Below the pieces are notes generated by a model. The model was not told the DNA's origin and searched no databases. It was given only the letters and a program-made list of their open reading frames with translations. From Candidatus Woesearchaeota archaeon (GTDB taxonomy: Archaea > Nanobdellota > Nanobdellia > SCGC-AAA011-G17 > JAGVXY01), in assembly GCA_018303545.1 (NCBI GenBank), contig JAGVXY010000009.1, forward strand, positions 24,350 through 88,349: a stretch of DNA of 64,000 bases. The letters are read 5' to 3'. Positions within the stretch are counted from its first letter, which is position 1. Every line of letters starts with the position of its first letter. Shown here piece after piece: positions 35,365 through 61,089 of the stretch. The position numbers and the translations under genes are program-made.

Positions 35365-35429
35365 ACATCTTTTAATATTTCAAAAGCAATTTATAAACCT
35401 TGCGCGACCATTTGGCAAGTGAATAGAAA

Positions 35430-35513: not shown

Positions 35514-35542
35514 ACTAAAGTAAATCTCCTCAAATAGAATAT

Positions 35543-44386: not shown

Positions 44387-44608
44387 AAATAATATAATAA
44401 TCCAGACATTAATAAAGCTTATTGCCATTTTTTTAGAATTTTAATAAGACTGAATGGCTCAGATTATTTTTCAATTTCATTGTCTAAACGGAGTCAATTA
44501 GAAGATTATTGACAAAACAACTACCTCTTTCCGAAAGGCATATTAATCTTACCCCTACATTTTAAAAAAAAGAAAAGATTTAAATATTTGTAGGGATAAG
44601 GGATATTC

Positions 44609-46965: not shown

Positions 46966-47444
46966 GGTGATTTTACTTCCACTATTGCACCCTTAGATTC
47001 CAAATCGTAACTCTTGCCATTTTCAAAGCATAATGGGTTAATAGCTTCATTATTTCTTAAATTAGAAACAGCAAACATAAGATCACAATCCTCTGTTTCC
47101 ATAGGCAGATAATACACATTCTTTCTTCCGTTTTGTATTACTGTTTTATATTCTTGCACAAGGTAATGGTTGTTATTTATTGGATTTTCAGAATTATAGA
47201 AGCATATCATATTCACTTTAGATGTTAATGAAGTCTTATAGCCTTGTCTTGATCCAGTATCCATTCTAAGCATTGATTTGACATCATTGTCTAATTTATT
47301 GTTGAAATCCTGTATTTTTACGCATTCGGCAAACTGCAGATATTTTACTATCTGTGATCCGCCCCATAAAAGAATCATCCCCGCAACAATAATTGCAAAG
47401 ATATACACCAACGGCATTCCAAGAAGCTGTCCTCTTTTTTTCAT
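46962..47444 (-). CDS. Pilin-like protein with class III signal peptide (MKKRG|QLLGMPLVYIFAIIV)
   Basis: KRG-Q motif. First gene of the three-gene operon. Confidence 0.5.
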   Translation of the reverse strand: MKKRGQLLGMPLVYIFAIIVAGMILLWGGSQIVKYLQFAECVKIQDFNNKLDNDVKSMLRMDTGSRQGYKTSLTSKVNMICFYNSENPINNNHYLVQEYKTVIQNGRKNVYYLPMETEDCDLMFAVSNLRNNEAINPLCFENGKSYDLESKGAIVEVKSP

Positions 47445-47763: not shown

Positions 47764-48303
47764 TTAATGCATTAATAAATAGTTTTTCTTGTATTTTGCG
47801 CCGAACTTCAAAAATAAATCTTCAAACAATTTTTCATTTTCAGCAGGCATGAAGAATACCTGCCGCGTCAGCCACTCGCCGTTGTATCGTTCCACCAAAG
47901 AATCTTTTCCCCTCAGGATATTAACTAGCCTTACTTTATCGCTTGCAGAAAGCCCATTCAGTTCATAAAAGAACATTAGTTTTGCGGAAAATTTAAAAAC
48001 TTCTGAAAAAGGCTTATTATGCCTCAGGCTGTACCCTTCTCTAAGCAGAGTATTTATGAGGGAAACTGGTTTGATAAAAAAATCATTAATCGAAATGATG
48101 CTTATATGCGCGCCCTCCAGCTCAATTTTGATTTCTTTTTTGCATATTACTGCGGCATCTATATCATCAGGGTTTATTTTTCCCTTTGCAGCAGATCCAA
48201 ATATTACAACATCAAGTACTGATTCATTTTTCAGAATATTTTTCAGGTCATTTATTAATGGAGTTTTTAAGTTCATATGCATATTTCCTCGCTTCAGCAA
48301 CAT
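47764..48303 (-). CDS. Minimal nucleotidyltransferase (MNT) domain protein
   Basis: VVIFGSAAKGKINPDDIDAAVI. Overlaps the upstream HEPN gene by 56 bp. Confidence 0.75.
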   Translation of the reverse strand: MLLKRGNMHMNLKTPLINDLKNILKNESVLDVVIFGSAAKGKINPDDIDAAVICKKEIKIELEGAHISIISINDFFIKPVSLINTLLREGYSLRHNKPFSEVFKFSAKLMFFYELNGLSASDKVRLVNILRGKDSLVERYNGEWLTRQVFFMPAENEKLFEDLFLKFGAKYKKNYLLMH

Positions 48304-48595
48304 CTTTTAATCCAAGCCGGAGATTATAGGTTTTGACATAAGTCTTGAATAATTTTGAGGCATTAGTATACACTTCAGGAAAATATTTCATGAGTAAAGA
48401 AAATCTTTCATTATGATTCTTGGGAAGAATCTTTATCTGGATATAAATACGATAGTCGCACAAGATAACTATCGCTTTAAAAAAGTCAGAGATTGCGGCA
48501 TTGAATCTTTTTTTCGTGAGATTATCCTCGCCAGAATCTAAAAATTCATTTGCATTTTTCAAAAGCTCTTCCATTAATACATTAATAATTATCAT
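48248..48595 (-). CDS. HEPN domain protein
   Basis: RFNAAISDFFKAIVILCDYRI helical HEPN core, 115 aa. Cognate of the downstream MNT. Confidence 0.65.
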   Translation of the reverse strand: MIIINVLMEELLKNANEFLDSGEDNLTKKRFNAAISDFFKAIVILCDYRIYIQIKILPKNHNERFSLLMKYFPEVYTNASKLFKTYVKTYNLRLGLKDVAEARKYAYELKNSINK

Positions 48596-48616
48596 AGATT
48601 TATAAGCTTTTCGTTA

Positions 48617-48628
48617 ATGCATTAATTT
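48617..48628. promoter_or_regulatory. Palindrome TTAATGCATTAA in the divergent promoter region between the HEPN-MNT operon and the wHTH-MNT gene
   Basis: Seen directly. A candidate operator, not verified. Confidence 0.3.
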
Positions 48629-48721
48629 AATAAGTTAATTTGGTTCAATTAAAGATTAAAATTAAACCAAAAAGCTTTTAAATGTATAATAAAATATACA
48701 ATTGTATAAAATAAAAGACAG

Positions 48722-49252
48722 ATGTATAAAAAAATAGATGCAAAAAATCAGGTTTTGAAGGTATTGTTTGAAAATCCAACTTACAGATACCATATTCGAG
48801 AGTTAGCCTCCGTTTCTAGACTAAATCCTAATACCATAATAAATGTTGCCATTTTGTTAGAAAAAGAAAATTTAATCCAAATTATCAAAAAAAAGCATGT
48901 AACAGAAATATATGCCAATCTAGAAAGCAAGGAATTCATAAGAAAAAAGAGATTGTTCAATATTGCTCAGCTTTATGATTCAGGACTGGTTGATTTTATT
49001 GATAGTAAATATTTTCCTAAGGTTATCAGTGTTATTGGCAGTTACAGTTCAGGAGAAGATATTGAAAAAAGTGATATTGATCTAATTGTTATAAATAATA
49101 CAGATAAAAAAATTATTGATCTTTCGCAGTTTGAGAAGAAATTATCAAGAAATATTCATTTAATCTTGACAGACTACCGAAATATTTCCGAAGAATTCTA
49201 CGCAAGTTTGATAAACGGGGTTATTCTTTCAGGTTTTCTTGATAAAAGGTGA
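48722..49252 (+). CDS. wHTH-fused minimal nucleotidyltransferase (third of three)
   Basis: ISVIGSYSSGEDIEKSDIDLIVI, N-terminal wHTH, C-terminal SLINGVILSG. Confidence 0.75.
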   Translation: MYKKIDAKNQVLKVLFENPTYRYHIRELASVSRLNPNTIINVAILLEKENLIQIIKKKHVTEIYANLESKEFIRKKRLFNIAQLYDSGLVDFIDSKYFPKVISVIGSYSSGEDIEKSDIDLIVINNTDKKIIDLSQFEKKLSRNIHLILTDYRNISEEFYASLINGVILSGFLDKR

Positions 49253-49336: not shown

Positions 49337-52300
49337 TTACCTGTATGTTTTTACGCGGTATATTACCCAGGCAATTGCTAAGAGTATCAGCAAGATAAGC
49401 AGTATGATTAAGCTTACCTTAGTCCCTGTTCCAATTACCGCACCAGTAATCTGATTTCCTGCATCAGAGATGGCTTCACTATTTAATGCATCAATATCCT
49501 TAGTTTCCTCTGTGTTCGTTGGAATAATCACTGGTTCAGATATTGCAGGTACTATTACAGCAGGCACAGGCACAACAATACTGCTGCCCCCACTGCCGCC
49601 TCCCCCTCCACCGCCGCCAGGCGCCACGTAAGGCGCTGATCCAAATGCCCCAAATAAACTAAAGTGGGTCACATTTGCCCATACATAATCATTTATTGTA
49701 TCTATTCCCTGGTTAGGTTCCAACTGCCAATTTCCTAGAGTTTCATTGAAATAATATATTCTCAATGTATTCTCATCTATCCCTAAGGCATCTAATTCAG
49801 ACTGGTTGTAATAGATTTTTATTAAAGCCCATTCTAATGCCCCTTCTGTGTTTGTATCAATCTCAACATTGATACCTTTCAGATAAGTTAGTCCAGCTGT
49901 TGCCCCAGAAGGATCAACATCTGCGCCAGCAATAGTTACTGTTGATGTTACACTGCTATTTAGATAGAATGTAATATTTGTATCTGCTCCAGGTGCTTCA
50001 ATCTCTGTCATATTATAGGCATCAATCATAGTCTGCAATTGTTCAATTGAAGTCACATTTCCATTCAAATTTATTTCGGGATTATTATCCAAGATGATTG
50101 TGCAGCTTACAAGTTCCAAGACTCCGCCATCAAAAATTATGCCCTGACCATCTGTATCAATGGAAATATTGTTGTTTATGCATTTTGCATTGCCATCAAT
50201 CATCCAATAAACATACATAGGCCTATTATCATAGATACCCCACGCCCCATTGTTATCAAACACACCGTTAGTCAAATGGGCGATAGAATTGCCATCGACA
50301 TACAATCCTGTATTTGCTGGAGGTAGGCAAACATCCATAACACTATCATCATTCGCATTAAATGTAGGATTAATGATAGTCTCTTCAGATGAAACTAGTC
50401 TCATACCCTCACAGTTATATTCTGCTAAGTTATTTTCAAATATATTGCCATTTGAATCAGCGGAGAATATTCCTATTTCATTGTATCGAACTGTATTCTC
50501 ATAGATATTATTGCCTGTTGAACTTCCAATATCAAGGCCATTTCCTATGCCCCCAATGGCAGTTCTTGTATCAAACAAATCACCTGTGTTATTTGCAATA
50601 GTATTGCTGTAGACCTGATTGTTATCGGAATTCGAGAGTCTTATTCCTGCATATAAATTGCCAGTAACTGTATTATCATAAATGACATTCTCTGCAGAAT
50701 ACTTGATATTTATTCCGACTTTTGCATCACGGACCACATTGCCTGAGATTGTGTTGTTATCTGAATTCAGCCTTACATCAATATTGTGCTGGAAAGTACC
50801 TTGTCCATTATTGTTGTGCACATAGTTGTCCAAAATCTGATTATTACTGGACTCCTTCAAATAAATTCCTCTGTCAAAACCCGAAATGGCACAATTCTTA
50901 ACCATAATATCGGATCTGCCTGCAACATAAATCCCATTGCCAGAATCACCGGTAATCGAATGTTTATTGCAGTTCAAGGCAATGTCATCTGCACCAATAT
51001 TTAATCCATTTATTGTTGCACCCTTTCCAGGTAATCTACAGTCAATATCTTTCTCCAATGTCAAATCTTCTTTGATTGTATCTCCGCACTGAACATTGCT
51101 TCCGTCAATAAGATTAACAATGAAAGTATGGCTTGAATCTTCAATTATTGAATTTCCTGCAAGGTCTTCTGCTCCACTTACAGTAATTGTTTCAGTTGTT
51201 AGATCAACTCTTGGCAAAGAATAAACAAAACAGAATGTTTCTGAAAGTTTATCTCTGCAATCATCAACAGTTTGAGCTCCGCCGTCAGGGCTTACTGTGA
51301 TAGCAGGAATATTAGTTATATATTCGCTGAATATTACTCTAATTTCTGGTTGTGAATCCTTATCATATATTACTCCATCAGAGCTTACAGAAACAATAGT
51401 AGGAATTACGGTATCAACAGTGAACCCTGAAACATCAAGGTGCCCAGAATTTCCGGCATTATCTGTAAGTACCAGTGCACAATCCAAATATATGTCATCT
51501 CCTAACGTATTAAAGGTAATAGTCTGTGTTCCTGCAGTATACTCTTGTTCAATTGAGGTGCATGCACCATTAAATTGTAAAAGACCTGCCTCATCTGTGT
51601 TAAAAGTATAATCTGGGGTATTGTCATTGGTATTTACTGGCACAGGAATTATTTCTGTTAAAACCGGTGCAGTATTATCTACAATTACATTTACCTTATT
51701 AGATGAAAAAACATTTCCGGTATTATCATAAGCTTCAACCCATAAGCTATAGGGGCCATCAGCAACAGAAGTTGTATCCCATTCAATGGAATATAAACCA
51801 TTTAAGTCACTATAAATTCCACGGCCTATGAATACATTTGAACCGCCATTCACAAACCAAAAATTAACATAATCGATTTTACTGGCTTTGTCATTAGCAT
51901 CCGCATTGATAGTAATTAGTTTGTTTAAATATTTATTTTCTTCCGGAAAAATTATAGTTGCAACTGGTGCAGTATTATCTAATCTTACATCAATTAATTT
52001 TTCAGGTGTTTCAATATTTCCAGCATTATCAACGGAATAATAAGAAATTGCATAAGTGCCCTCGTCACTTATGGAGATGGAATTTCCAACGATGGGTTTG
52101 GAATCATCAATGGAATAATATGTATTACTGCAACCACTGCCACCAATGCCATCATCACAAGTTAAGGTAATTGTAAATGGATTATTTTGCCAACCACTGG
52201 GAGCGTCATCCGTGGTAGCTGGAGCTGTAACATCTCCTACAACCATCGCACTGCCTCCGCTAACACTAAAAATAATCATAGCTATTAATAAGACTGAAAT

Positions 52301-52381
52301 AAAAATTGATCTTCTATTGTTTGTCATAATCTTCGTCCCCCAACATTTCATTTGATATAATTTTTTCGAAAGCGTAAACAT
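49337..52381 (-). CDS. Giant (1014 aa) surface protein with right-handed parallel beta-helix repeats, Gly-rich stalk and C-terminal TM anchor
   Basis: Signal/TM N-terminus. PbH1-type repeats (NNNGQGTFQHNIDVRLNSDNNTISGNVVRDAKVGINIKYSAENVIYDNTVTGN...). GGGGGGGGSGGSS stalk, then IILLILLILLAIAWVIY followed by RVKTYR. Confidence 0.65.
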   Translation of the reverse strand: MFTLSKKLYQMKCWGTKIMTNNRRSIFISVLLIAMIIFSVSGGSAMVVGDVTAPATTDDAPSGWQNNPFTITLTCDDGIGGSGCSNTYYSIDDSKPIVGNSISISDEGTYAISYYSVDNAGNIETPEKLIDVRLDNTAPVATIIFPEENKYLNKLITINADANDKASKIDYVNFWFVNGGSNVFIGRGIYSDLNGLYSIEWDTTSVADGPYSLWVEAYDNTGNVFSSNKVNVIVDNTAPVLTEIIPVPVNTNDNTPDYTFNTDEAGLLQFNGACTSIEQEYTAGTQTITFNTLGDDIYLDCALVLTDNAGNSGHLDVSGFTVDTVIPTIVSVSSDGVIYDKDSQPEIRVIFSEYITNIPAITVSPDGGAQTVDDCRDKLSETFCFVYSLPRVDLTTETITVSGAEDLAGNSIIEDSSHTFIVNLIDGSNVQCGDTIKEDLTLEKDIDCRLPGKGATINGLNIGADDIALNCNKHSITGDSGNGIYVAGRSDIMVKNCAISGFDRGIYLKESSNNQILDNYVHNNNGQGTFQHNIDVRLNSDNNTISGNVVRDAKVGINIKYSAENVIYDNTVTGNLYAGIRLSNSDNNQVYSNTIANNTGDLFDTRTAIGGIGNGLDIGSSTGNNIYENTVRYNEIGIFSADSNGNIFENNLAEYNCEGMRLVSSEETIINPTFNANDDSVMDVCLPPANTGLYVDGNSIAHLTNGVFDNNGAWGIYDNRPMYVYWMIDGNAKCINNNISIDTDGQGIIFDGGVLELVSCTIILDNNPEINLNGNVTSIEQLQTMIDAYNMTEIEAPGADTNITFYLNSSVTSTVTIAGADVDPSGATAGLTYLKGINVEIDTNTEGALEWALIKIYYNQSELDALGIDENTLRIYYFNETLGNWQLEPNQGIDTINDYVWANVTHFSLFGAFGSAPYVAPGGGGGGGGSGGSSIVVPVPAVIVPAISEPVIIPTNTEETKDIDALNSEAISDAGNQITGAVIGTGTKVSLIILLILLILLAIAWVIYRVKTYR

Positions 52382-52523
52382 TAAATTCGCTCGAACGCAT
52401 ATTAATTTCAGATGAAAATAGGGTGCACCTTAATAAAGTTTTGTATTTATGTTGACTTTACACTAATAACAATAATTTAATACTAAAAATAACCCCTCTA
52501 AAAGAACAAATAAAAAAATAAAT

Positions 52524-53258
52524 TTAATTTAAATTCACACTAAAAGCAACAGGCGCAACAGTCTGAGATTCAGTTGTTATCAAAGATGAAATTTGATCAT
52601 CAGCAATCTCACCGACAAATTTGTATTTACCAATATATTTGTCATACAAATAAACGCCCATCAATCCAGTAGTCTGGCTGTCTTTAGTTATGAATACAGA
52701 TCTTGTGCTCAAAACACCAAAAGGACCATCAAGCTTATTTCCATCAAGTTTCAAAACTTCATAAGGAACAGTATTCTTTGAATAGACAGAAATATACAGC
52801 GCTTCTTGGCCTTCATTGTATTTTGGTGCAATTACTCTGTCTCTTGCATAAGCCATGCCCATTTTTGTTGAAAGCACAACTCTCTCTCCAGGTAAGCCCC
52901 CATTTTTCTTAAGATTGATCAAAACTTCATCTTTAAGCGAATAGCCGTTCTTTCCTGCAGGATTCAATATATGATCCAATTTATCAGTAAAATCAGGAAG
53001 GTACACAGCAACTTTTGACCAGCTTATGTCTTTGCCATTAAGTATAATTTCATCATGCTCAACAGCAGCATTTCTCATGCCAAGTCCAATCAAAAGATTA
53101 TCTGAAAGGCCCCAGTTTGTCTTTATATTGTCTGAGTATATCTGCATCTCAAGTCCAAAAGTTGAGTTATCAACTTTGGCATCAGAAAATGGAGCAAAAG
53201 CAGAAATAACCAGCACAATTGCGGCTAATATTGTTAGTTTAATATTAAAGGTTTTCAT
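52524..53258 (-). CDS. Secreted hypothetical protein (signal peptide)
   Basis: MKTFNIKLTILAAIVLVISAFAPFSDA signal. Same strand as the giant-protein cluster. Confidence 0.4.
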   Translation of the reverse strand: MKTFNIKLTILAAIVLVISAFAPFSDAKVDNSTFGLEMQIYSDNIKTNWGLSDNLLIGLGMRNAAVEHDEIILNGKDISWSKVAVYLPDFTDKLDHILNPAGKNGYSLKDEVLINLKKNGGLPGERVVLSTKMGMAYARDRVIAPKYNEGQEALYISVYSKNTVPYEVLKLDGNKLDGPFGVLSTRSVFITKDSQTTGLMGVYLYDKYIGKYKFVGEIADDQISSLITTESQTVAPVAFSVNLN

Positions 53259-53367: not shown

Positions 53368-56300
53368 CTAAATTTCTTCTTCAGTATAGATTATATACTC
53401 GCCTAAATTGCCATAAATATCCTTGCACTTAACATAAAACTTGTCATAACTCAATGAAGTCTCATGCACTTTGGAATTATCTCCAGTCATCTTATTCCCT
53501 TCCCCAAATCTGAAATTTTTGTCTCCAGATTCGCAGGAGCAGTCTTCATCAGTCTCAATATATAATGTTCCCTCTGTGAAAATATACATAAGTTTCGGCG
53601 CAGTAGTATCTGCCGTAACCCTAAAGGTAGTATTAGTATTGACTTGGTTTCCTGCTGCATCTCTGCAGGCCACATAATATTTATATTCAGCCATAGGCAA
53701 AATTAATGGCTGTTCATGCAGTGTTTCATTTGTTTTGAAGAAATAAACCATATTCTCAAAAACAGTATCCTTATCAGCGAAAGCGCACATTGCCTTTCCA
53801 TTATCTGCTCCTTTCTCAGTAAGCACTTTTAATGTAACATTATTTGTGTATAATTCTCCTGAAGGCCCAATAGAAACAACTTTCAATGCTTCAGTTCCTT
53901 TCAAGCTAAATTTATAGCTGTCTTCATTAAAGTTTTTTGACATATCTTCACATTTAAAATAATAATTAGTCTCTTGATTTGGTTTTATTCCTGTTAATTT
54001 TGTTTTGCATTCATAGAGCCCACCAAACACTCCGGCTATATCATAAGCTGCGGTGGCGCATTGCATGCTTGTATTCATTGAAATATAATCAACATCATTG
54101 AAATCCCACTTGCATCTCGCAGGCTCACTTACATATACACTTAAATCAGTATCATTTTTATTAGCTGCAATCATTGCTCCATTAGTTAGACTTGTCTGTT
54201 CAATTACCGGCGCTGTTAAATCCGGTGAAGGATCTATCGAGAATCTTACAAAGTAATCATTCTCATTTGCATTTCCCGCTCCGTCCTGGCATCTTATATA
54301 TAGAGTTACAGTATTTCCGTTTACTAATTGTATAACTTGGTTTCCATCTGTATAGCTTGCATTAGGCAGCATTAATTGCGATGACTGATTGTATCTGTAT
54401 AAACTATCCTGCACATAGAATGCAGGCATATCATTATATTTAACAGAATGATTTGCGCTGATTTTGCACTGCGCAGGTTCATTAGTTCTAATTCCAAATG
54501 TTATTGGTTGGAATGCTTTTACTTTTGGCTGTATTTCAAAGCCTGGATTTCCTTGGTAAGTTATTTCTCTTAATGTGTATCCCTCTTTTAATTTTTCAGG
54601 CCATGGTTTTATTATTGGTGCGTTGACATCATTTGGATGCATATTTACGCAAGTCTCATTGTTTCCAGTTCCTGGATTTAATAATGTGCAGTATTTTCCT
54701 AAAGATTTGCATCTGTATTCAGAGCAAGGTTTTATTGGATCCTTATTGCATTCTTCACAGTCTCTTCCACCATCAGGCGCTTCCCATGGTGCGCAGTTTA
54801 CAACAATAGTTTTTGTTTTTTCTGAAGCTGCAACAATATCAACAACTTGATAGATTGTGTATATCCATAACAGTGTATTAAATAATTGCATAAATCCACC
54901 TGCTGCCCCCCCAGTAGAAGAATATTTCGAAACGGATGTTGCCCCTTTCGCATCTGCAGCACTTGAAGCTACTTGATTACCTAAACTTCCATCAGCATTT
55001 ATAGCATACTTATACCATCCATTTTGTGTATTAGTGTAGAGAAAATCTTTTCCAATAAAAACATTGTCTGTACCAAGGTTTCTAATGCCATTAGCCAATT
55101 CTTCTTGTCCTATTGAATTTAATCCTAAATCATAAGTTATTGCTGCCTGTCCAGTCAACCCAAAAGCCTCAGTTCTAACACCAGTTAAAGTAGATTGTTT
55201 GCTAACCATTGCGGCAGAAGATTTTGGTCCGAGGGCGAAACCACTAAATATCTTGTCAATATTCGACCAACCCCATCCCGCGTGACCCCAAGAGGCAATA
55301 CCAGTAAGAGCCATCCATGAAAGTATCATCCATCCGCCTTTCCTATCAAGTTCATCCAACATTCCAGGTTTCTGGTCTTTATATTTATCAGCAGGGAATT
55401 GCAATTCCAAAAATTTAGTAACTTCAGATTTAGTTAATTTCAATCCAGATTCAGTAAACACACCTAAATAATTAAAGTAAGCTCCGCAGTCTCCCTGCGC
55501 AATGCAAGAGGTACTTTGAGCTAGTAGCCAATCTTTTTCTAAGCAGTGACAGTTTCTTACGCATTTCCATTTGTCGCTTATCCCTCCAACAGCAGGAATA
55601 TATTTCCCAATCAATGAAGTCCATCCGCCAGCAGCATAAGTAACCTCACATTTTGATGAAGCTTGTTCACATGCATCAATATTTGTTCCGCCAGTTGGAT
55701 TAGTGCTAGAACTTGAAGTTGAAGTCGCAGCCGCCGCAGCATTTCCCGAACCAGATTGACTAGAACCGGTAGTAAAGCTAGCAGAACCTAAATCATCACC
55801 CCAAAAAGTAAATCCAGGAGGAACCATAGGCACACACTTTCCAGGAGAATCTTTGCTCACTTCATTTCCAGTAGATTTAACGACAGCATCTCCCCACCAA
55901 TAGCAGTCCCTATATTGCAGTTCGGTGCAGCATTTGTATGCATCTTCCAATTTATCAACATAAGAATTCATCGCATCTTCAGAATCAATCTCTTCAAACG
56001 TGGGATCTTCTACATTGCATGCAGCGCAATCAGCCCATCTGTTTTCTCTGCATCTACCTTCAATATATTCTCCTCGGGAAGCAAGCAATGTAAACGAAGT
56101 GCCGGTAGAAAGAGGCTCTGAACCTAAAATACCCTGAACGCAAATCTGTTCCCTATAATCTGCGCAAGGTTCAACAGTAGTCTCACCGTTTATACAAATC
56201 TGTCTGAACTGTCTCGAACCTACAGCATCTCTGCCCCAGCCAGTAGCTCCATCATATAAACACCATGACTCACCATTCTTTTTGTCTCCACCTGAAGCAG

Positions 56301-57108
56301 GAGAACTAGTTTCTTTGTAAACACTTGAGCAGTCAACAGAGTTGCATTTAGCATTTGCTTCATCAACAGCCTTGCATAACGTACCCGAAGCATAATCGCA
56401 GTCTTCAGCGATGTCTTCTGGATTTCCGCATGAATCAAACCAATAAACATCTTCTTTGTAACAAGCTTTATGATGATGAGAAGCGCAGTCGCAGCTTAAT
56501 TTTTTATCTGAACAAAAAGTATCCTTGTGAAAACCTATAGAACTTCCAATATCTGCACTCTGTTCTCCGCAGCTTTCTCTAGCAGTCCATGAGCAGGTAT
56601 CTTGAGAAACGCAGCAGCCCATTTCATTATTTCTGCAAGAATCAACGCATTCTTGTTCAGAAGCAGCATCTTTAAAATCCATCTGCACAAAAGGAAATTT
56701 TTGAGTTTCAGTTTTACAGCGCGTTTGTGTCACATAAGAGCATTCAGTTCCAATAGTGCAGCATCCTCTGGTGCATTTAGGATCATTGCACTCAGGAGAA
56801 GCAAGCCAAACAATTCCTTCGCCTTTGCTTTGCGCAAGAGACCTTGGAACATTTTTGTAGCATACTCCAACTTCTTCATCAACGCCGCATCCTAACTGGC
56901 AGTAACTTGTTTGTTCGCAAGCAGTAGGCGCAGAATTGAAATTAGCATCGCAACTCTTAGCATCAGTATACATGCAATACTCTCCATTAACGGTTTTCTC
57001 GCAGCACCTTAAATCTTGCACAACCGCTTCAGCAGAAGGAGTATACACTGAGAAAATGGAAAAAATTATTACTGTACATAAAAACATCGATGTTATTTTC
57101 TTTATCAA
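53368..57108 (-). CDS. Giant (about 1240 aa) cysteine-rich surface protein with internal hydrophobic segments (paralog 1)
   Basis: TTG start in the ORF track; a likely ATG at 57087 gives a clean signal peptide MFLCTVIIFSIFSVYTPSAEA. About 50 Cys in the first 330 aa. S/T/G linker, two or three hydrophobic segments, then a beta-rich C-terminal domain about 450 aa long. Paralogous to 58030..61089. Confidence 0.6.
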   Translation of the reverse strand: MIKKITSMFLCTVIIFSIFSVYTPSAEAVVQDLRCCEKTVNGEYCMYTDAKSCDANFNSAPTACEQTSYCQLGCGVDEEVGVCYKNVPRSLAQSKGEGIVWLASPECNDPKCTRGCCTIGTECSYVTQTRCKTETQKFPFVQMDFKDAASEQECVDSCRNNEMGCCVSQDTCSWTARESCGEQSADIGSSIGFHKDTFCSDKKLSCDCASHHHKACYKEDVYWFDSCGNPEDIAEDCDYASGTLCKAVDEANAKCNSVDCSSVYKETSSPASGGDKKNGESWCLYDGATGWGRDAVGSRQFRQICINGETTVEPCADYREQICVQGILGSEPLSTGTSFTLLASRGEYIEGRCRENRWADCAACNVEDPTFEEIDSEDAMNSYVDKLEDAYKCCTELQYRDCYWWGDAVVKSTGNEVSKDSPGKCVPMVPPGFTFWGDDLGSASFTTGSSQSGSGNAAAAATSTSSSSTNPTGGTNIDACEQASSKCEVTYAAGGWTSLIGKYIPAVGGISDKWKCVRNCHCLEKDWLLAQSTSCIAQGDCGAYFNYLGVFTESGLKLTKSEVTKFLELQFPADKYKDQKPGMLDELDRKGGWMILSWMALTGIASWGHAGWGWSNIDKIFSGFALGPKSSAAMVSKQSTLTGVRTEAFGLTGQAAITYDLGLNSIGQEELANGIRNLGTDNVFIGKDFLYTNTQNGWYKYAINADGSLGNQVASSAADAKGATSVSKYSSTGGAAGGFMQLFNTLLWIYTIYQVVDIVAASEKTKTIVVNCAPWEAPDGGRDCEECNKDPIKPCSEYRCKSLGKYCTLLNPGTGNNETCVNMHPNDVNAPIIKPWPEKLKEGYTLREITYQGNPGFEIQPKVKAFQPITFGIRTNEPAQCKISANHSVKYNDMPAFYVQDSLYRYNQSSQLMLPNASYTDGNQVIQLVNGNTVTLYIRCQDGAGNANENDYFVRFSIDPSPDLTAPVIEQTSLTNGAMIAANKNDTDLSVYVSEPARCKWDFNDVDYISMNTSMQCATAAYDIAGVFGGLYECKTKLTGIKPNQETNYYFKCEDMSKNFNEDSYKFSLKGTEALKVVSIGPSGELYTNNVTLKVLTEKGADNGKAMCAFADKDTVFENMVYFFKTNETLHEQPLILPMAEYKYYVACRDAAGNQVNTNTTFRVTADTTAPKLMYIFTEGTLYIETDEDCSCESGDKNFRFGEGNKMTGDNSKVHETSLSYDKFYVKCKDIYGNLGEYIIYTEEEI

Positions 57109-57878
57109 CTAGGTTCACCCTCTACAAAAAACTGGAACATTAATCCATCTGTAGTCTGTGTTCTTTTTATCTGGTATAATTTATCAGGATAAGGCCGGTG
57201 TTTGTAAATCATATATTTCCCCGTTTTTGAAAGCATGTATATAAGCTGATCAAAATCTCCAAATTCAGTTTCGACATTTATTATGTCCTGTGAAACATCA
57301 TACAAATCGCCTAAAGGCAAATTAACCATAGTATTGAATTTATTTTCGGTAATTGTAATATCTTTCTGTGTCAGCACAACAGGGTAAGTTACATCAACTT
57401 GCACATTTTCCTTATTTATAATTACCGTTGCCTTTGGCATTCCCTGTCCGCTTACAGTTACGCCTGAAAATATTGATGAAAAAGAATTTACATCTATGCA
57501 TTTCTGCAGATTAAAATTTATCACCTGTGAAAGGTCTTTTTCCATATCTGAAATTGTAAGCATTTTATTATAGCATGTAGGCTGACCCTTAATATTATAG
57601 CAAAGATAGCTTACAGTAGTCCCATTAAATAATTTGTAAGATTTTGGAGTCAGCTGTCCGCCTTTCAAAGCAATCTCTCTTATTGGCCCATTAGCCGATT
57701 CATCAACACATTCTTGAATATGTTCTCTTATTGGCCCAAATTCTGTCTGCACTGTCTCTATAGTAATCGTTCCTGGCAGAATTCTTTCTCTAAATGCCAA
57801 AGTCAGGCCTATTACCCCTACTATTAGAATCCCTAATATAATATAGATTGTTACTTGACCTCTTTTTCCCATTTCCAT
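57105..57878 (-). CDS. Pilin-like protein with class III signal peptide (MEMGKRG|QVTIYIILGILIVGV) inside the giant-protein cluster
   Basis: KRG-Q motif plus a long hydrophobic helix. Lies immediately upstream of giant paralog 1. Confidence 0.5.
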   Translation of the reverse strand: MEMGKRGQVTIYIILGILIVGVIGLTLAFRERILPGTITIETVQTEFGPIREHIQECVDESANGPIREIALKGGQLTPKSYKLFNGTTVSYLCYNIKGQPTCYNKMLTISDMEKDLSQVINFNLQKCIDVNSFSSIFSGVTVSGQGMPKATVIINKENVQVDVTYPVVLTQKDITITENKFNTMVNLPLGDLYDVSQDIINVETEFGDFDQLIYMLSKTGKYMIYKHRPYPDKLYQIKRTQTTDGLMFQFFVEGEPS

Positions 57879-58029
57879 TTTCCCTGAATACCCCTTTCTA
57901 TTTAAATATTTTGATTATGAATATACGATTATTTCAGTCATTGCATTGCCGTATTGATCGATGCATTTCACATGATAAGCGGTTGTTGATAGTGGCGCTC
58001 CATGCAATGTTGTATTTATTCCAGACATA

Positions 58030-61000
58030 TCATATCCCTGACCAAGTCATATTTGAATATTGGCATGTTGTTATTTCGCTCAGTTCAATTCTAAGTTCTG
58101 TGTCTCTGAATATTCCTAATAATAAAGGCGCCGAAGTATCTACAGTTATTCTAAATTTAGTTGCATTGCTGGCAACATTTCCGGCAATATCTGTACATTC
58201 AAAATTATAATTATATTCCCCTAACTTTAATCCTTGCAGTAATTGTCTGTGCACTGAGCTTGAAGTTTCCATCATCTCAATCATGCCTCTTCCTTTTTCA
58301 GCAAAAGAGCATATTGCTTTTCCGCCTTCAGCTCCTCCGAAAGTTCCTAATTTTAATTCTGCGTTTGTTGAATATATCTCTTTTCCCATTGTGGGTTCAA
58401 CAAAAGTTATTTTTAATTCATCAGTGCCAATTACAGAAATTGGATAGCTCTGCTGGTTTGTATTTCCATATCTGTCCTGGCATCTTATATAATACTGATT
58501 TGCTCCTTTTGAAATATTTGGTAAAATTATTAGTGCATTAAATCCAAAATTAGAATAGCTATTAGCGCTCAATCCGCCATACTGCATCAGTTCATAATCT
58601 GTGTCAATTGTATCGACTCTGCAAGTTCCAGGCTCATTTAAAGTTACTGTTAAAGGTGAGTAAGTTACATTAAAAGGTATGAACGCTCCATCTTTCAGGC
58701 TTACATTTTCTATCACCGGGGCTGTTAAATCTGGGCCTTCTTTTGTTTTATATTTTATTACATAATATATGGGATTATCATTTCCTTGATAGTCTGAACA
58801 TTTTATTGCATAACTATATTCTGTATTAGGTTCCATTACGGAAATAGTCATTGTGTGATTTAATCTGAACATCACATCTTCAAAGTAACTTGCAGGCATC
58901 TCTTCGAACTTCTTTGGATATTGTATATCTGCATTCGTATCTACTTTGCATTGTGCAGGCTCTGAAGTCTCAATGCCAAAAGTTATTGGCTTGAATGGAT
59001 CAACTAAAGGTAAAATATTATATCCGGATTGTGCTCCATCTTGAATTTGATATTCTTTATTTAAAACTTCCAACCAAGGTTTTATCATCGGTGCATTAAC
59101 ATCATTCGGATGCGCTACAACACAAGTCTCATTTCCTGTTCCTTCATTTACTAATTTGCAGTCCGCTCCTAAAGATCTGCATTTATATTCAGAACATACT
59201 TTGAAAGGCCCCGTGCATTCCTCGCATTTATTTTCTTTAGGTGCCGTCCACGGAGCGCAGATAGAGGTAAAAATATGTTCATGCTGCTCACTTCCTGAAG
59301 TTACAAGCCAGGTAATTATTAAAATTATCGCTAAAACAATCCAACCCCAAATGGGAATTACACCAAGCCATCCTGAACCAGCCACAACACTCCCCAGAGC
59401 GCCCTTAGCTGCCGCAAGAGCAAGAATACTAATTGTTCCACCTGTAAACGTAACTGCCCCAACCGTTACAGTTGCTGTTGCAAAAACCAAGATATAAATA
59501 GAAATTAAAGTAGCAGCAATTCCACCATAAGCTCCAAATTGATTGATAGTTCCTATTGTGTTCATTTCACTTAAAACAGCATCACTAATGCTACCCAAAA
59601 CATCCATCATAACACTTAAGCCACCATGAACTCCGTAAGTTGCCCAATAATTCCATAAATATTCAGGAACACCACTATATTCTAAATTGCCATCAGCTGA
59701 TCGGACCATCCATTTTGGAGGGCCGCTAGGATCCCAATTATCTTGATAAGCGGATTTTAAATCAAAAGAATCCAAACCGCCTTTGACTAATTCAACATTA
59801 TATGCTGGACCGCAATCTCCCTTGCTCTTGCAATATAATAAAACATTATCTGCAAATTTTTGCTGCAAGGTTTCTTGATTAATTTCATGCCAGTCTGCAA
59901 AAGTATTTTTTTTATAATAAAAATAATGGGCTTCAATATTTGCTTCTGAGCAAGTTTCAGCAACAGTTTCATCTTCAGTATCCCAGAACTTAAATCCTTC
60001 AGGAACAGTAGTTATAGATGTATTCCAATTTTCAATGCAAGCCGCAGCAGCATAAGATCCTCTGTCAGCGCTAGCTTTTCCCTGCAGACAAATTTCTTCT
60101 CTATAATCTTTGCACTCTTCATACACTTCTTCACCATTTATACATAAGTGTCTATAGTGTCTAGAGCCAACAGCATCAGTCCAATTTCCAGTAGGTCCTT
60201 CATAAATGCACCAAGATTCTCCATTCATCCTAAAGCCACCAAGTCTAGCATCATGAACATTCTTCTCATCGGTATAAGTAGAAGTGCAATCTAAAGAAGA
60301 GCAAGAAGCCGTATTGTTATCTATCTGCTTACAAAGTGTCCCTTTGGCATAATCACAATCATCTGCAATCCCTTCCATGTTTCCGCATGAATCAAAATAA
60401 TAAACATCTTCACCGACACATTGAGTTTTATATTGTTTCGTACAGTCACAACCTAAACTTGAATCTGAACAGTAAGTATTAAAATTAAATTGAATACCTT
60501 GACTAGTCAAGGCTTGTCGGCTTTCACAGTCATCCCTAGTTGTCCAAGAGCACTCCCCGAGACCTAGAGAGCAGCACCCATGGTCTTGCCCCTGGCAGTA
60601 GCCAACACATTCTAATTCAGAAGTGGCATCCCTAAAATCCATCGATAAATAAGGAAAATTAGAAACAGCATTTTTACATTCTAACTGGGTAGACATAAAG
60701 CATTGGTCTCCAATTACACAGCAGTTTTTTTGGCATTCAGGAACTTGGCAAAGTGGATCAGCACTAAATAATCCGTCTTTAGAAGCGCAAGTCGGCTGCG
60801 GTGTATTTTTATAGCATGCCCCATCATTTTTATCATAGCAGCAACCTAATTTGCAGAAAGAAGAAGCCTCACAGGACGAAGCGGAAACCCTGTATCCTGG
60901 ATTGCACTGGTCCTGCGTTGTATACTGGCAAGTCTCTCCGCCCTTAGTAATCTCACAGCAGACTTTATTCGCATCCCCATTCGTATTCTCATCTTCAGCA

Positions 61001-61089
61001 TTGACTTCGGAAACAAAATAAGAAAAAGCAACAATGGCAATAATCATAATAAAGCACATGCTCACCGCTTTTTCTTTTAAAAATATCAT
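58030..61089 (-). CDS. Giant (1019 aa) cysteine-rich surface protein with internal multi-TM block (paralog 2)
   Basis: Signal peptide. Cys-rich N-terminal domain alignable to paralog 1 (VCCEITKGGETCQY... vs RCCEKTVNGEYCMY...). Conserved CAPWTAPKENKCEECTGPFKVCSEYKCRSLG module. About 75-aa hydrophobic block. Confidence 0.6.
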   Translation of the reverse strand: MIFLKEKAVSMCFIMIIAIVAFSYFVSEVNAEDENTNGDANKVCCEITKGGETCQYTTQDQCNPGYRVSASSCEASSFCKLGCCYDKNDGACYKNTPQPTCASKDGLFSADPLCQVPECQKNCCVIGDQCFMSTQLECKNAVSNFPYLSMDFRDATSELECVGYCQGQDHGCCSLGLGECSWTTRDDCESRQALTSQGIQFNFNTYCSDSSLGCDCTKQYKTQCVGEDVYYFDSCGNMEGIADDCDYAKGTLCKQIDNNTASCSSLDCTSTYTDEKNVHDARLGGFRMNGESWCIYEGPTGNWTDAVGSRHYRHLCINGEEVYEECKDYREEICLQGKASADRGSYAAAACIENWNTSITTVPEGFKFWDTEDETVAETCSEANIEAHYFYYKKNTFADWHEINQETLQQKFADNVLLYCKSKGDCGPAYNVELVKGGLDSFDLKSAYQDNWDPSGPPKWMVRSADGNLEYSGVPEYLWNYWATYGVHGGLSVMMDVLGSISDAVLSEMNTIGTINQFGAYGGIAATLISIYILVFATATVTVGAVTFTGGTISILALAAAKGALGSVVAGSGWLGVIPIWGWIVLAIILIITWLVTSGSEQHEHIFTSICAPWTAPKENKCEECTGPFKVCSEYKCRSLGADCKLVNEGTGNETCVVAHPNDVNAPMIKPWLEVLNKEYQIQDGAQSGYNILPLVDPFKPITFGIETSEPAQCKVDTNADIQYPKKFEEMPASYFEDVMFRLNHTMTISVMEPNTEYSYAIKCSDYQGNDNPIYYVIKYKTKEGPDLTAPVIENVSLKDGAFIPFNVTYSPLTVTLNEPGTCRVDTIDTDYELMQYGGLSANSYSNFGFNALIILPNISKGANQYYIRCQDRYGNTNQQSYPISVIGTDELKITFVEPTMGKEIYSTNAELKLGTFGGAEGGKAICSFAEKGRGMIEMMETSSSVHRQLLQGLKLGEYNYNFECTDIAGNVASNATKFRITVDTSAPLLLGIFRDTELRIELSEITTCQYSNMTWSGI

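What the first reader, a model, noticed from the sequence alone, without database searches (positions are those of the whole stretch)
53368..61089. Two paralogous giant Cys-rich proteins share a conserved CAPW...CEEC...CSEY(K/R)C(K/R)SLG module following an internal hydrophobic block
Beyond N-terminal Cys-rich heads that align residue by residue, both proteins carry a hydrophobic block. This is GGWMILSWMALTGIASW... and LLWIYTIYQVVDIVAAS in paralog 1. Paralog 2 has a roughly 75-aa stretch, YGGIAATLISIYILVFATATVTVGAVTF...IPIWGWIVLAIILIITWLV. The block is immediately followed by a conserved Cys motif. That motif reads CAPWEAPDGGRDCEECNKDPIKPCSEYRCKSLGKYC in paralog 1 and CAPWTAPKENKCEECTGPFKVCSEYKCRSLGADC in paralog 2. 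After it comes HPNDVNAP(I/M)IKPW. A polytopic membrane segment embedded inside an otherwise extracellular giant protein is unusual. It suggests a membrane-anchored hinge or a processing site.
Basis: seen in the sequence. Interest (0 to 1): 0.6.

Follow-up and report, generated by a model that had tools for sequence, protein, structure and literature searches.

The report
Membrane-anchored giant surface protein pair
Two giant cysteine-rich proteins of a tiny symbiotic archaeon (Woesearchaeota/Pacearchaeota group) belong to a large, unnamed family encoded in a conserved operon with five pilin-like proteins and the S-layer gene; only one of the pair has a true membrane-anchoring segment, and the conserved cysteine motif after it probably clasps the two halves of each protein together by a disulfide.

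Summary
The sequences are real and the two proteins are true paralogs (N-terminal parts 42% identical, C-terminal parts 38%). The C-x-P-W…C-x-x-C…C-[ST]-E-Y-x-C-x-S-L-G motif is conserved across a large, unannotated family found only in Woesearchaeota, Pacearchaeota and Nanoarchaeia.

The shorter, upstream protein has an uncharged 78-residue block with 2-3 membrane-competent helices. The longer protein's two "blocks" are too polar (about +5 to +6 kcal/mol). One is a conserved amphipathic helix.

This split is systematic. In 15 of 16 adjacent gene pairs the upstream gene has the membrane-competent helix and the downstream one does not.

Context changes the picture. The conserved order is short giant, prepilin-like gene, long giant, four prepilin-like genes, S-layer gene.

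Cysteine counts are informative. The head is odd in 112 of 115 members, the motif module has exactly 7 in 113 of 115, and the totals are even. Naturally split genes are odd plus odd. This implies a head-to-module disulfide clasp with both halves outside the cell.

Best reading: a membrane-anchored two-paralog surface complex that works with pilin-like partners. Its function (envelope scaffold or attachment) is unresolved.

The parts
58030..61089 (-). Paralog 2, the 'short giant' (ORF as it reads in the window, 1019 aa)
   Evidence: ORF list. It is 100% identical to P0001 (1060 aa) up to the frameshift. Orthologs lie upstream in the conserved cluster.
57915..58043 (-). Frameshifted continuation of paralog 2 (last 42 codons plus stop, GQGYDMSG...EIIVYS*). 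An 8-bp deletion at about 58043/58044 causes the shift.
   Evidence: Three-frame translation and comparison with L083 DNA and P0001.
60997..61089 (-). Paralog 2 Sec-type signal peptide (MIFLKEK...SEVNA, V-N-A cleavage motif)
   Evidence: Read directly from the sequence. Hydrophobic segment 8-26 at -1.9 kcal/mol. Cleavage is inferred.
59635..60996 (-). Paralog 2 disulfide-rich head (residues 32-485, 39 Cys)
   Evidence: Translation. AF2 block-mean pLDDT is mostly 75-93, with dips to about 56-59. Cys count.
59296..59529 (-). Paralog 2 hydrophobic block, 78 aa with one charged residue (K). It has 2-3 membrane-competent helices and is the proposed membrane hairpin anchor.
   Evidence: Hessa-scale sums of -0.4, +1.9 and -2.2 kcal/mol. 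AF2 shows helices and coil at pLDDT about 30, with no beta strands. Family statistics.
59260..59295 (-). 12-residue polar linker (GSEQHEHIFTSI) that forms the first beta strand of the C-terminal half
   Evidence: AF2 strand 601-611 with block-mean pLDDT about 85. The first charged residue lies 10 aa before the motif Cys in 41 of 85 short-type members.
59158..59259 (-). Paralog 2 motif CAPWTAPKENKCEECTGPFKVCSEYKCRSLGADC (core of the 7-Cys module)
   Evidence: Invariant columns. The module has exactly 7 Cys in 113 of 115 members.
59074..59112 (-). Paralog 2 HPNDVNAPMIKPW, the end of the Cys module
   Evidence: D663 and P667 are at least 90% conserved.
57105..57878 (-). 'pilA': 257-aa prepilin-like protein encoded between the two giants (MEMGKRG|QVTIYIILGILIVGV...)
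   Evidence: Orthologs in L001 and L003 at 36-42% identity. The K-[KR]-[GA]|Q leader occurs in 90 of 98 orthologs. Synteny.
53368..57108 (-). Paralog 1, the 'long giant' (1246 aa from a TTG start; public gene callers start at Met8)
57025..57108 (-). Paralog 1 Sec-type signal peptide (...TPSAEA)
   Evidence: Hydrophobic segment at 0.0 kcal/mol. Cleavage is inferred.
55267..55338 (-). Paralog 1 'block 1' (GGWMILSWMALTGIASWGHAGWGW). It is not membrane-competent. It lies where the separately encoded C-halves of Pacearchaeota begin.
   Evidence: Best window +5.2 kcal/mol. AF2 pLDDT about 30. N-halves align to residues 1 to about 557 and C-halves from about 622-768 onward.
54823..54894 (-). Paralog 1 pre-motif amphipathic helix (FMQLFNTLLWIYTIYQVVDIVAAS). 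It occupies the same position as the last membrane helix of paralog 2.
   Evidence: Best window +6.0 kcal/mol. AF2 helix at pLDDT 78-89. Conserved N, W, Y and D positions in the long type.
54688..54795 (-). Paralog 1 motif CAPWEAPDGGRDCEECNKDPIKPCSEYRCKSLGKYC
   Evidence: pLDDT about 94.
54601..54639 (-). Paralog 1 HPNDVNAPIIKPW
46962..47444 (-). 'pilB': 160-aa prepilin-like protein (MKKRG|QLLGMPLVYIF...)
46036..46965 (-). 'pilC': 309-aa prepilin-like protein (MKG|QIENSLTWIF...)
45528..46052 (-). 'pilD': 174-aa prepilin-like protein (..FSKG|QIQMMETISVLVV..)
43928..44428 (-). 'pilE': 166-aa ORF, prepilin-like protein (..MRRA|QIEIVGMVIIV..)
41612..43642 (-). S-layer protein gene (PF05124). It is the last member of the conserved cluster and has no membrane anchor of its own.
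   Evidence: Pfam E 6.7e-10. Orthologs. Synteny.

Best explanation
The two genes encode the two subunit types of a conserved cell-surface complex of Woesearchaeota, Pacearchaeota and Nanoarchaeia.

Each protein is exported by an N-terminal Sec-type signal peptide and has two halves:
- a head built from small disulfide-rich modules;
- a stalk made of a 7-Cys module (the C-x-P-W...C-x-x-C...C-[ST]-E-Y-x-C-x-S-L-G motif) followed by four Ig-like beta-sandwich domains.

The halves are joined by a variable insert.
- In the upstream, shorter paralog (58030..61089) the insert is an uncharged block rich in Gly, Ala, Val, Ile and Thr. It most likely forms a helical hairpin in the cell's own membrane, leaving both halves outside. 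The Cys module starts only 10-14 residues after the last helix, so it sits on the membrane surface.
- In the downstream, longer paralog (53368..57108) the insert has degenerated. It is now a weakly hydrophobic stretch, a disordered linker of about 125 residues and a conserved amphipathic helix. This protein is therefore a secreted partner that must be held by protein contacts.

The motif module has seven cysteines and the head an odd number. One module cysteine therefore most likely forms a disulfide with the head, clasping the two halves across the insert.

The complex is made together with five proteins carrying prepilin-type (class III) signal peptides and is genetically tied to the S-layer gene. 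I therefore read it as a membrane- and pilin-anchored envelope or attachment structure.

Shown here: paralogy, motif conservation, the difference in hydrophobicity, synteny and Cys parity. Inferred: topology, the disulfide clasp, heteromeric assembly, and the final function.
For: 1. Paralogy and motif conservation. The motif is found in 139 of 202 representatives.
2. Family size and range: 2295 clusters at 50% identity with E<=1e-30. At least 584 genomic loci encode a relative; the best 80 (78 distinct loci) were examined and all are Woesearchaeota, Pacearchaeota or Nanoarchaeia MAGs.
3. Hydrophobicity: 85 of 139 members have a helix at <=1.5 kcal/mol within 45 aa of the motif (median length 1138 aa). 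The other 54 do not (median 1275 aa, median best value +5). The window's paralog 2 scores -2.2 and paralog 1 scores +5 to +6.
4. In 15 of 16 adjacent giant-pilA-giant pairs the upstream gene is membrane-competent and the downstream one is not.
5. The short-type block has a median of 64 aa with 0 charged residues. It shows only hydrophobic-character conservation. The long-type helix has conserved N(-28), W(-24), Y(-19) and D/E(-15).
6. AF2: head and stalk are confident. The block is helix or coil at pLDDT about 30. The long-type helix has pLDDT 78-89 and runs into a strand of pLDDT about 94.
7. The stalk matches tandem Ig/FN3 arrays.
8. Cys parity: the mature total is even in 150 of 160 members (p=3e-33). 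The head is odd in 112 of 115 although it ranges from 37 to 59. The module has 7 in 113 of 115 and the remainder is even.
9. In naturally split genes the N-half is odd in 10 of 11 and the C-half is odd in 10 of 10. The C-half has its own N-terminal export signal.
10. Synteny: short giant, pilA, long giant, pilB-E, S-layer, with 4-bp overlaps between genes.
11. Prepilin-type leaders K-[KR]-[GA]|Q occur in all five small families. They match the EppA-type pilin signal described in PMC3875500.
Against: - No dedicated topology predictor was available. The hydrophobicity test is a simple 19-residue sum.
- Many short-type blocks show one or three strong segments rather than two (41 with one, 36 with two, 7 with three). 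An odd number of crossings is therefore excluded only indirectly, by Cys parity and by the long paralog.
Odd cysteines could instead form bonds between molecules.
- No type IV pilus ATPase, TadC-type membrane protein or prepilin peptidase lies within about 10 kb in three annotated loci.
- The pilin-like genes match no Pfam or NCBIfam pilin model.
- No expression, proteomic or imaging data exist for these uncultured organisms.
Confidence: 0.6

Rival explanations
1. Processing site. The last helix of the hydrophobic block acts as an internal signal sequence and is cut (by signal peptidase I after the small-residue cluster at its end, or within the Gly/Ala-rich helices by a rhomboid-type protease). 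The mature short paralog would then be a two-chain, disulfide-linked protein: a membrane-anchored head plus a released stalk. This is like flavivirus or retrovirus envelope precursors.
For: - Positions -13 to -11 before the motif Cys are Gly/Gly/Gly-or-Ala in about 35-60% of short types, followed by a charged residue.
- The residue before the first charged residue is G, A, S or T in 56 of 85.
- Some lineages encode the two halves of the long paralog as separate genes, so two-chain forms are functional.
- Cys parity predicts an inter-half disulfide that would hold cut chains together.
Against: - A full small/small pattern at -1 and -3 occurs in only 28 of 85.
- The helix is long (about 20-25 residues), which favours uncleaved anchors.
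- The long paralog lacks the small-residue cluster.
- No direct evidence of cleavage exists.
Confidence: 0.2
2. Function-level rival A. The complex is the tip or adhesin module of a type IV pilus-like fibre. The five prepilin-like proteins would form a minor-pilin priming or tip complex. The giants would be its adhesins (the role PilY1 plays with minor pilins in bacteria), used to attach to host cells.
For: - Five families with conserved prepilin-type leaders sit in one operon with the giants.
- Archaeal type IV pilus loci are known to include large adhesin-like and S-layer-like proteins, minor pilins and conserved cysteines (PMC4858521).
- DPANN genomes have unrecognisable pilins (PMC6393860).
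Against: - No assembly ATPase, membrane platform or peptidase is in the cluster.
- The giants are well conserved (27-37% identity to paralog 2 across the 78 loci examined, with invariant Cys) and sit among housekeeping genes (PCNA, TFIIS). This is unlike fast-evolving host-specific adhesins.
- A membrane hairpin is not a feature of known tip adhesins.
Confidence: 0.3
3. Function-level rival B. The complex is an envelope scaffold that anchors or spaces the S-layer. The S-layer protein itself has no membrane anchor. The short giant and the prepilin-like proteins would provide membrane attachment. This resembles the SlaB/SlaA division of labour in Sulfolobales.
For: - The S-layer gene (PF05124) is the last gene of the cluster in 23 loci.
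- The window's S-layer protein ends without a hydrophobic tail.
- One paralog is anchored and one is not.
- Near-universal, conserved presence in a housekeeping context.
Against: - The S-layer gene is separated by a gap of about 235 bp and may be a separate transcription unit.
- Gene adjacency is not interaction.
- Makarova et al. deliberately excluded several S-layer arCOGs from pilus-linked sets.
- There is no structural similarity to SlaB.
Confidence: 0.3
4. The C-terminal half of the short paralog is cytoplasmic (an odd number of membrane crossings). Its cysteines would bind metal (C-x-x-C ... C-x4-C) instead of forming disulfides.
For: - Many short-type blocks show one or three strong hydrophobic segments.
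- Several have Lys-rich linkers after the last helix.
- C-x-x-C plus C-x4-C resembles a zinc knuckle (read directly from the sequence).
Against: - The homologous half of the long paralog follows no membrane-competent helix and so is exported with the head.
- Separately encoded C-halves carry their own export signal.
- The odd-plus-odd Cys parity of head and module across 105 of 115 members is hard to explain if they lie on opposite sides of the membrane.
- Tandem Ig-like arrays with paired Cys are typical of exported proteins.
Confidence: 0.05
5. The hydrophobic block is not in any membrane. It would be a buried core element or a low-complexity artefact.
For: AF2 gives it very low confidence. 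Its composition is unusual for membrane helices, with 13% Gly, 16% Ala and only 10% Leu.
Against: - A median of 64 consecutive uncharged residues with segments down to -6 kcal/mol.
- No beta structure is predicted.
- Hydrophobic character is conserved without residue-specific conservation, as expected for lipid-facing helices.
Confidence: 0.05

Closest known systems
Large S-layer-like and adhesin-like proteins encoded with minor pilins in archaeal type IV pilus loci (Makarova, Koonin & Albers 2016, PMC4858521; e.g. Thermoproteales subclades 4E/4G)
   Same: Both have two large exported proteins, one membrane-anchored and one with only a signal peptide. Both are encoded with several small pilin-like proteins, have many conserved cysteines thought to form disulfides, and are frequently associated with S-layer genes.
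   Different: - Here the anchor is an internal hairpin between two large outside domains, not a C-terminal helix.
- The two large proteins are paralogs of each other.
- No ATPase or TadC gene is in the cluster.
- No sequence or Pfam relationship to those arCOGs was detected.
PilY1 plus the minor-pilin tip complex of bacterial type IVa pili, and the five-pseudopilin sets of type II secretion (from established knowledge)
   Same: A set of about five prepilin-type proteins is co-encoded with large non-pilin, Sec-exported proteins. A possible shared role is priming or tip adhesion.
   Different: - The giants have no beta-propeller or vWA domain: Pfam scans down to E = 0.1 returned no such family.
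- The giants have a membrane hairpin and a disulfide-rich head.
- This is an archaeal system with an EppA-like +1 Gln leader.
SlaA/SlaB S-layer of Sulfolobales (from established knowledge)
   Same: Two large envelope proteins are encoded side by side. One is anchored in the membrane and carries the other.
   Different: - These archaea have a separate Methanococcus-type S-layer protein (PF05124).
- The anchor position differs.
EppA-processed pilins of Methanococcus maripaludis (PMC3875500)
   Same: The leader is short and basic and ends in Gly, with Gln at +1, an acidic residue near the start of the helix, and then about 20 hydrophobic residues.
   Different: - The acidic residue is at +3 (pilE) or +6 (pilD), not +5, and is absent in pilA.
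- The proteins are much larger (140-330 aa).
- None matched any Pfam pilin or class III signal-peptide model, even at E up to 10.
Viral envelope precursors whose two outside domains are separated by a membrane hairpin and/or linked by a disulfide controlled by a C-x-x-C motif (flavivirus prM-E and E1-E2; gammaretrovirus SU-TM) (from established knowledge)
   Same: An outside head, a Gly/Ala-rich hydrophobic segment, then a Cys module with C-x-x-C. A head-to-stalk disulfide is inferred.
   Different: - No heptad repeats and no C-terminal anchor.
- No structural match in BFVD or PDB.
- Cleavage is not shown.
- The genes are chromosomal and absent from viral contigs.

Membership tests
[quoted passage not shown] | Short basic leader ending in Gly/Ala directly before a hydrophobic helix of about 20 residues | tested here: met
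   [KR][GA] directly before the hydrophobic stretch in 90/98 (pilA), 37/39 (pilB), 37/38 (pilC), 28/34 (pilD) and 29/32 (pilE) orthologs.
[quoted passage not shown] | Conserved +1 residue (Gln in EppA-type archaeal pilins) and an acidic residue early in the helix | tested here: inconclusive
   +1 Gln in 86/90 pilA, 29/29 pilE and 23/28 pilD, but variable in pilC. Glu is at +3 (pilE, 29/29) or +6 (pilD, 26/28) and not at +5.
[quoted passage not shown] | Match to a curated pilin or class III signal-peptide model | tested here: not met
   No pilin or class III signal-peptide model among the Pfam hits even at E up to 10, and no NCBIfam pilin model at E up to 0.1. HMMER speed filters make short-motif models hard to hit.
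[quoted passage not shown] | Cleavage by a prepilin peptidase and assembly by a pilus ATPase and membrane platform | not testable with these tools
   No such genes within about 10 kb in L001, L003 or L083. The rest of the genomes was not available.
PilY1/PilC-type pilus tip adhesins | C-terminal beta-propeller domain and N-terminal vWA domain | tested here: not met
   Pfam shows only borderline Ig-like matches. AF2 plus Foldseek shows four beta-sandwich domains, not a propeller.
[quoted passage not shown] | Match to pfam07760 (DUF1616) | tested here: not met
   Not among the Pfam hits for either giant at E<=0.1. The resemblance is only architectural.
Bacterial Ig-like domain family Big_13 (PF19077) | Score above the Pfam gathering threshold; beta-sandwich fold | tested here: inconclusive
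   Paralog 2 scores 26.1 bits against a cut-off of 27, and paralog 1 scores 14.5. Fold-level similarity to Ig/FN3 arrays is clear.
Fusexin/HAP2 class II fusogens (archaeal Fsx1) | Three-domain beta-rich ectodomain superimposable on Fsx1/HAP2 | tested here: not met
Sec-exported, disulfide-bonded extracellular proteins | N-terminal signal peptide; even number of cysteines in the mature chain | tested here: met
   Signal-like N-termini with A-x-A type ends. Even Cys count in 150/160 members, p=3e-33. Actual disulfides were not observed.

The most novel reading that the evidence does not exclude
The short giant could be a disulfide-latched membrane-insertion device. The Gly/Ala-rich hydrophobic hairpin would be held between a receptor-binding head and a C-x-x-C-containing module. 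On contact with a host cell, thiol-disulfide exchange at the clasp would free the hairpin to insert into the host membrane. Together with the pilin-like proteins this would form the long-sought machinery by which Woesearchaeota and Pacearchaeota attach to, or open a bridge into, their hosts. A milder version: the giants are incorporated into a pilus-like fibre through their internal hydrophobic helices, as 'giant pilins'.
Probability: 0.1. Interest if true: 0.9.

Novelty: new variant of a known kind. Interest (0 to 1): 0.6.

Why it matters
Woesearchaeota and Pacearchaeota are among the most abundant uncultured archaea. They are thought to live attached to other cells, yet nothing is known about how their envelope is built or how they hold on to hosts.

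This analysis gives concrete targets for that question:
It has 2295 clusters at 50% identity.
- The family sits in a near-universal operon with five prepilin-like genes and the S-layer gene.
- One paralog appears to be membrane-anchored and the other not.
- A head-to-stalk disulfide is predicted at the 7-Cys module.

These points can be tested by proteomics, cryo-tomography and heterologous expression.

The Cys-parity argument is also a cheap, general way to infer covalent links and topology in uncultured organisms.

Tried and rejected
1. Internal prepilin cleavage site before the last helix of the block. This was prompted by 'AAAKG|ALGSVV' in paralog 2. It was rejected because no K/R-G is conserved there. 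A P-x-x-G-[WFAC] turn occurs in only 16 of 85.
3. Sequence links to known families. Pfam, NCBIfam and PDB profile searches gave nothing for the giants except borderline Big_13.
4. Link to the DPANN-specific 'NEQ255' family of Makarova et al. 2019. This could not be established. The pilA search returned only unnamed or 'hypothetical' proteins, and NEQ255 appears in no other paper.
5. A conserved signal-peptidase site at the end of the last helix. It is only partly conserved (28 of 85), so it is kept as a rival rather than adopted.
7. Direct alignment of paralog 1's first block with the N-terminal signals of split C-halves. BLAST does not align them, so only positional correspondence is claimed.

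Full report
**What is at the coordinates**

Both ORFs lie on the minus strand.
- Paralog 1 is 53368..57108 (1246 aa).
- Paralog 2 is 58030..61089 (1019 aa as read in the window).

BLASTP of the two proteins gives two strong alignments:
- 42% identity over 366 aa for the N-terminal heads (E 2e-87);
- 38% over 465 aa from just before the motif to the C-terminus (E 9e-87).

The middle parts do not align.

The window carries an 8-bp deletion at about 58043/58044 relative to three other contigs of the same population. Those contigs encode an intact 1060-aa protein (P0001). In the window the last beta-sandwich domain continues in another frame down to 57915. The stated end of the feature is therefore an artefact of a frameshift.

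**The family**

A word-indexed search with paralog 2 found 65 proteins. All are unnamed or labelled hypothetical, and all are from Woesearchaeota or Nanoarchaeota metagenome bins.

A profile of 20 short-type members was searched against 1.84 billion representatives. It found 2295 clusters at E<=1e-30 and 8758 at E<=1e-3.

A scan of one genome per species found at least 584 loci that encode a relative. The best 80 (78 distinct loci) all come from Woesearchaeota, Pacearchaeota or Nanoarchaeia.

No relatives were found in viral contigs.

Searches against curated libraries found almost nothing for the giants:
- Pfam gave only sub-threshold hits, the best a borderline Ig-like match (Big_13, 26.1 bits against a cut-off of 27). 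NCBIfam and a PDB sequence-profile search gave only noise-level hits.

In a 59-sequence alignment the motif cysteines and P617 and G641 are invariant. W614, Y635, S639, L640, D663 and P667 are at least 90% conserved. The motif is real and is a family signature.

**The hydrophobic block is not the same thing in the two paralogs**

I summed the Hessa biological hydrophobicity scale over 19-residue windows.
- Paralog 2 has segments at -0.4, +1.9 and -2.2 kcal/mol within residues 524-598.
- The best windows in paralog 1's two blocks are +5.2 (residues 591-614) and +6.0 (residues 739-762). These values are not compatible with independent membrane insertion.

The same split holds across 139 family members that carry the full motif:
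- 85 have a helix at <=1.5 kcal/mol within 45 residues upstream (median protein length 1138 aa);
- 54 do not (median length 1275 aa, median best value +5).

In 15 of 16 adjacent gene pairs the upstream gene is the membrane-competent one.

The short-type block has these properties:
- median length 64 residues with no charged residue;
- composition 13% Gly, 16% Ala, 13% Val, 12% Ile, 10% Thr and 10% Leu;
- the first charged residue lies 10 residues before the first motif Cys in 41 of 85 members.

The conservation patterns differ between the types.
- In the short type the helix is conserved only in hydrophobic character.
- In the long type the helix at the same position has residue-specific conservation: Asn at -28, Trp at -24, Tyr at -22 and -19, Asp/Glu at -15.

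This is the pattern expected for a lipid-facing anchor in one case and a protein-contact helix in the other.

**Structure predictions**

AlphaFold2 on the intact short protein gave a mean pLDDT of 80.5.
- The head (about residues 40-480) and residues 600-1060 are modelled confidently.
- The block (506-583) is helix or coil at pLDDT about 30, and a helix at 581-597 leads into strand 601-611.
- No beta structure is predicted in the block.

Foldseek against the PDB matched only tandem Ig/FN3 arrays, so the C-terminal part is a four-domain beta-sandwich stalk.

A second model covered paralog 1 residues 28-835.
- The head has pLDDT about 95.
- Residues 575-736, including the first block, have pLDDT about 30.
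- The pre-motif helix has pLDDT 78-89 and the Cys module about 94.

**Genomic context**

In L001 and L003 the gene order is as follows:
1. short giant;
2. a protein of about 255 aa;
3. long giant;
4. four small proteins (about 160, 320, 170 and 150 aa);
5. an S-layer protein (PF05124).

Most genes are separated by 4-bp overlaps or very short gaps.

The window has orthologs of every one of these. The cluster here is interrupted by insertions: a 244-aa secreted protein, a 1014-aa beta-helix protein, nucleotidyltransferase/HEPN-type genes and a Fic gene.

I called ORFs in 81 loci and classified them with small profiles:
- giant-pilA-giant occurs in 40 loci;
- pilB-C-D-E in order occurs in 26;
- pilE followed by the S-layer gene occurs in 23.

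Most exceptions are contig ends.

All five small families have a short basic leader ending K-[KR]-[GA] directly before about 20 hydrophobic residues.
- Gln is at +1 in 86 of 90 pilA and 29 of 29 pilE.
- Glu is at +3 in pilE and at +6 in pilD.

This matches the class III (prepilin) signal described for EppA-processed pilins of Methanococcus maripaludis: a leader ending in Gly, +1 Gln, and an early Glu (PMC3875500). They match no curated pilin model. No pilus ATPase, platform or peptidase gene lies nearby.

**A natural experiment: split genes**

In Pacearchaeota-type loci the long paralog is encoded as two adjacent genes.
- The N-half is about 510-595 aa, with its own Sec signal and the Cys-rich head.
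- The C-half is about 650-930 aa.

The N-halves align to paralog 1 residues 1 to about 557. The C-halves align from about 622-768 onward. The break therefore falls where paralog 1 has its first weak hydrophobic block.

The C-halves begin with their own basic-plus-hydrophobic export signal, many with K-[KR]-G. They continue with a Gly-rich region, a hydrophobic helix, a linker of about 10 residues, the C-x-P-W motif and the Ig-like domains.

This shows two things. The junction is a genuine module boundary, and the C-half is exported in its own right.

**Cysteine parity**

- The number of cysteines in the mature protein is even in 150 of 160 members (p=3e-33).
- The head count ranges from 37 to 59 but is odd in 112 of 115.
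- The motif module has exactly seven in 113 of 115, and the Ig-like remainder is even.
- In the split genes the N-half is odd in 10 of 11 and the complete C-half is odd in 10 of 10.
- The globular parts of pilA-E carry 2, 4 or 6 cysteines.

The simplest explanation is that all cysteines are paired and that one head cysteine pairs with one cysteine of the seven-Cys module. This would be a disulfide clasp across the insert.

The clasp places both halves on the same, outer side of the membrane. The short-type block must then enter and leave the membrane an even number of times, as a hairpin. This is inference: I could not read model coordinates, and bonds between molecules would satisfy parity as well.

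**How it most likely works**

The short paralog is anchored in the cell's own membrane by the hairpin. Its head and stalk are both outside and clasped together at the membrane-proximal Cys module.

The long paralog has lost membrane competence. It keeps an amphipathic helix at the same position and is a secreted partner.

Three features suggest the two work together with the prepilin-like proteins:
- the constant pairing of the two paralogs;
- translational coupling of the genes;
- a pilA gene next to each giant (duplicated in Pacearchaeota).

I cannot separate two functional readings, and I rate them about equally:
- an S-layer or pseudoperiplasm scaffold, favoured by S-layer linkage, housekeeping context and strong conservation;
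- a pilus-tip or attachment complex, favoured by the five prepilin-like genes.

Proteolytic processing at the end of the last helix remains possible but is only weakly supported.

**Comparison with what is known**

The nearest described organisation is that of archaeal type IV pilus loci. These include a membrane-anchored S-layer-like protein, a signal-peptide-only adhesin-like protein, minor pilins and many conserved cysteines (PMC4858521). Makarova et al. also noted that DPANN pilins are unrecognisable and that a DPANN-specific secreted family sits next to S-layer-like genes (PMC6393860).

The present system differs in four ways:
- the anchor is an internal hairpin between two large ectodomains;
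- the two large proteins are paralogs with divided roles;
- there is a parity-implied clasp;
- assembly genes are absent from the cluster.

It fails the tests I could run for the following families:
- PilY1-type adhesins;
- pfam07760 S-layer-like proteins;
- fusexins.

I therefore rate it a new variant of a known kind. The family itself is uncharacterised.

**Verdict**

The finding is worth following up mainly because of the conserved operon and the disulfide and topology inference, both of which can be tested directly.

Noticed in passing
window 58043/58044 (minus strand): There is an 8-bp deletion relative to L083, L084 and L085, which come from the same population. It frameshifts paralog 2 and cuts off its last beta-sandwich domain. 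The tail is still readable in another frame to 57915. This could be an assembly error or a real strain variant.
   Followed up: yes
window about 55451 (paralog 1, near residue 552): The window lacks 63 bp (21 codons, in frame) that are present in L083 and P0091, just upstream of paralog 1's first hydrophobic block. L083 also has about 100 extra bp in the intergenic region upstream of paralog 2.
   Followed up: partly
window 49337..53258 (minus strand): Two genes are inserted into the conserved cluster between the long giant and pilB. One is a 244-aa secreted protein with no family match. The other is a 1014-aa protein with Big_7/Big_13 Ig-like domains, a NosD/right-handed beta-helix region, a Gly-rich stretch and a C-terminal membrane helix. 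Both are also present in L083 but absent from the cluster in other species.
   Followed up: partly
window 47764..49252, 40154..40816 and 44609..45502: Several minimal nucleotidyltransferase and HEPN-like small genes (toxin-antitoxin type) and a Fic/DOC gene are scattered inside and beside the envelope cluster.
   Followed up: partly
window 35998..37170 (+) and 40965..41369 (-): An IS200/IS605-type TnpB (OrfB_IS605 plus a Cas12f-like TNB domain) and, about 4 kb away, a 134-aa ORF that looks like a Y1 (IS200-type) transposase. The second assignment is read from the sequence only.
   Followed up: partly
window 38439..39293 and 39344..40012 (minus strand): Two adjacent paralogous small exported proteins with lipobox-like N-termini (LFLAGC, ILSGC), Cys-rich N-terminal parts and similar C-terminal ends (...YALIKVTA, ...YAIIKIVKG).
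   Followed up: no
L061, L062, L066, L067, L069, L071, L073, L074, L079, L080, L082: In Pacearchaeota-type loci the long paralog is split into two genes, most of them adjacent and some overlapping by a few bp (head half and stalk half). The stalk half has its own N-terminal export signal, often K-[KR]-G followed by a hydrophobic stretch with a conserved 'AF.W.IG'. A pilA-like gene precedes each giant.
   Followed up: yes
L001, L003, L005 and many other loci, upstream of the short giant: PCNA, TFIIS-type zinc ribbon and RNA polymerase subunit L genes recur just upstream of the cluster. The envelope operon therefore sits in a conserved housekeeping neighbourhood. In the window and L083 this neighbourhood has been rearranged, with TruD and a 200-aa gene upstream.
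   Followed up: partly
short-type hydrophobic blocks (e.g. P0007, P0008, P0028): A subset of short-type blocks contains a conserved polar turn 'YGIEHGD' between hydrophobic segments and a 'P-x-x-G-W' start to the last helix. This suggests four-helix versions of the anchor. The number of crossings may differ between lineages.
   Followed up: partly
window 33744..33818 (+) and 35429..35514 (-): tRNA-Lys(CTT) and tRNA-Ser(TGA). These are the only RNA genes found by ARAGORN and Rfam in the window.
   Followed up: yes
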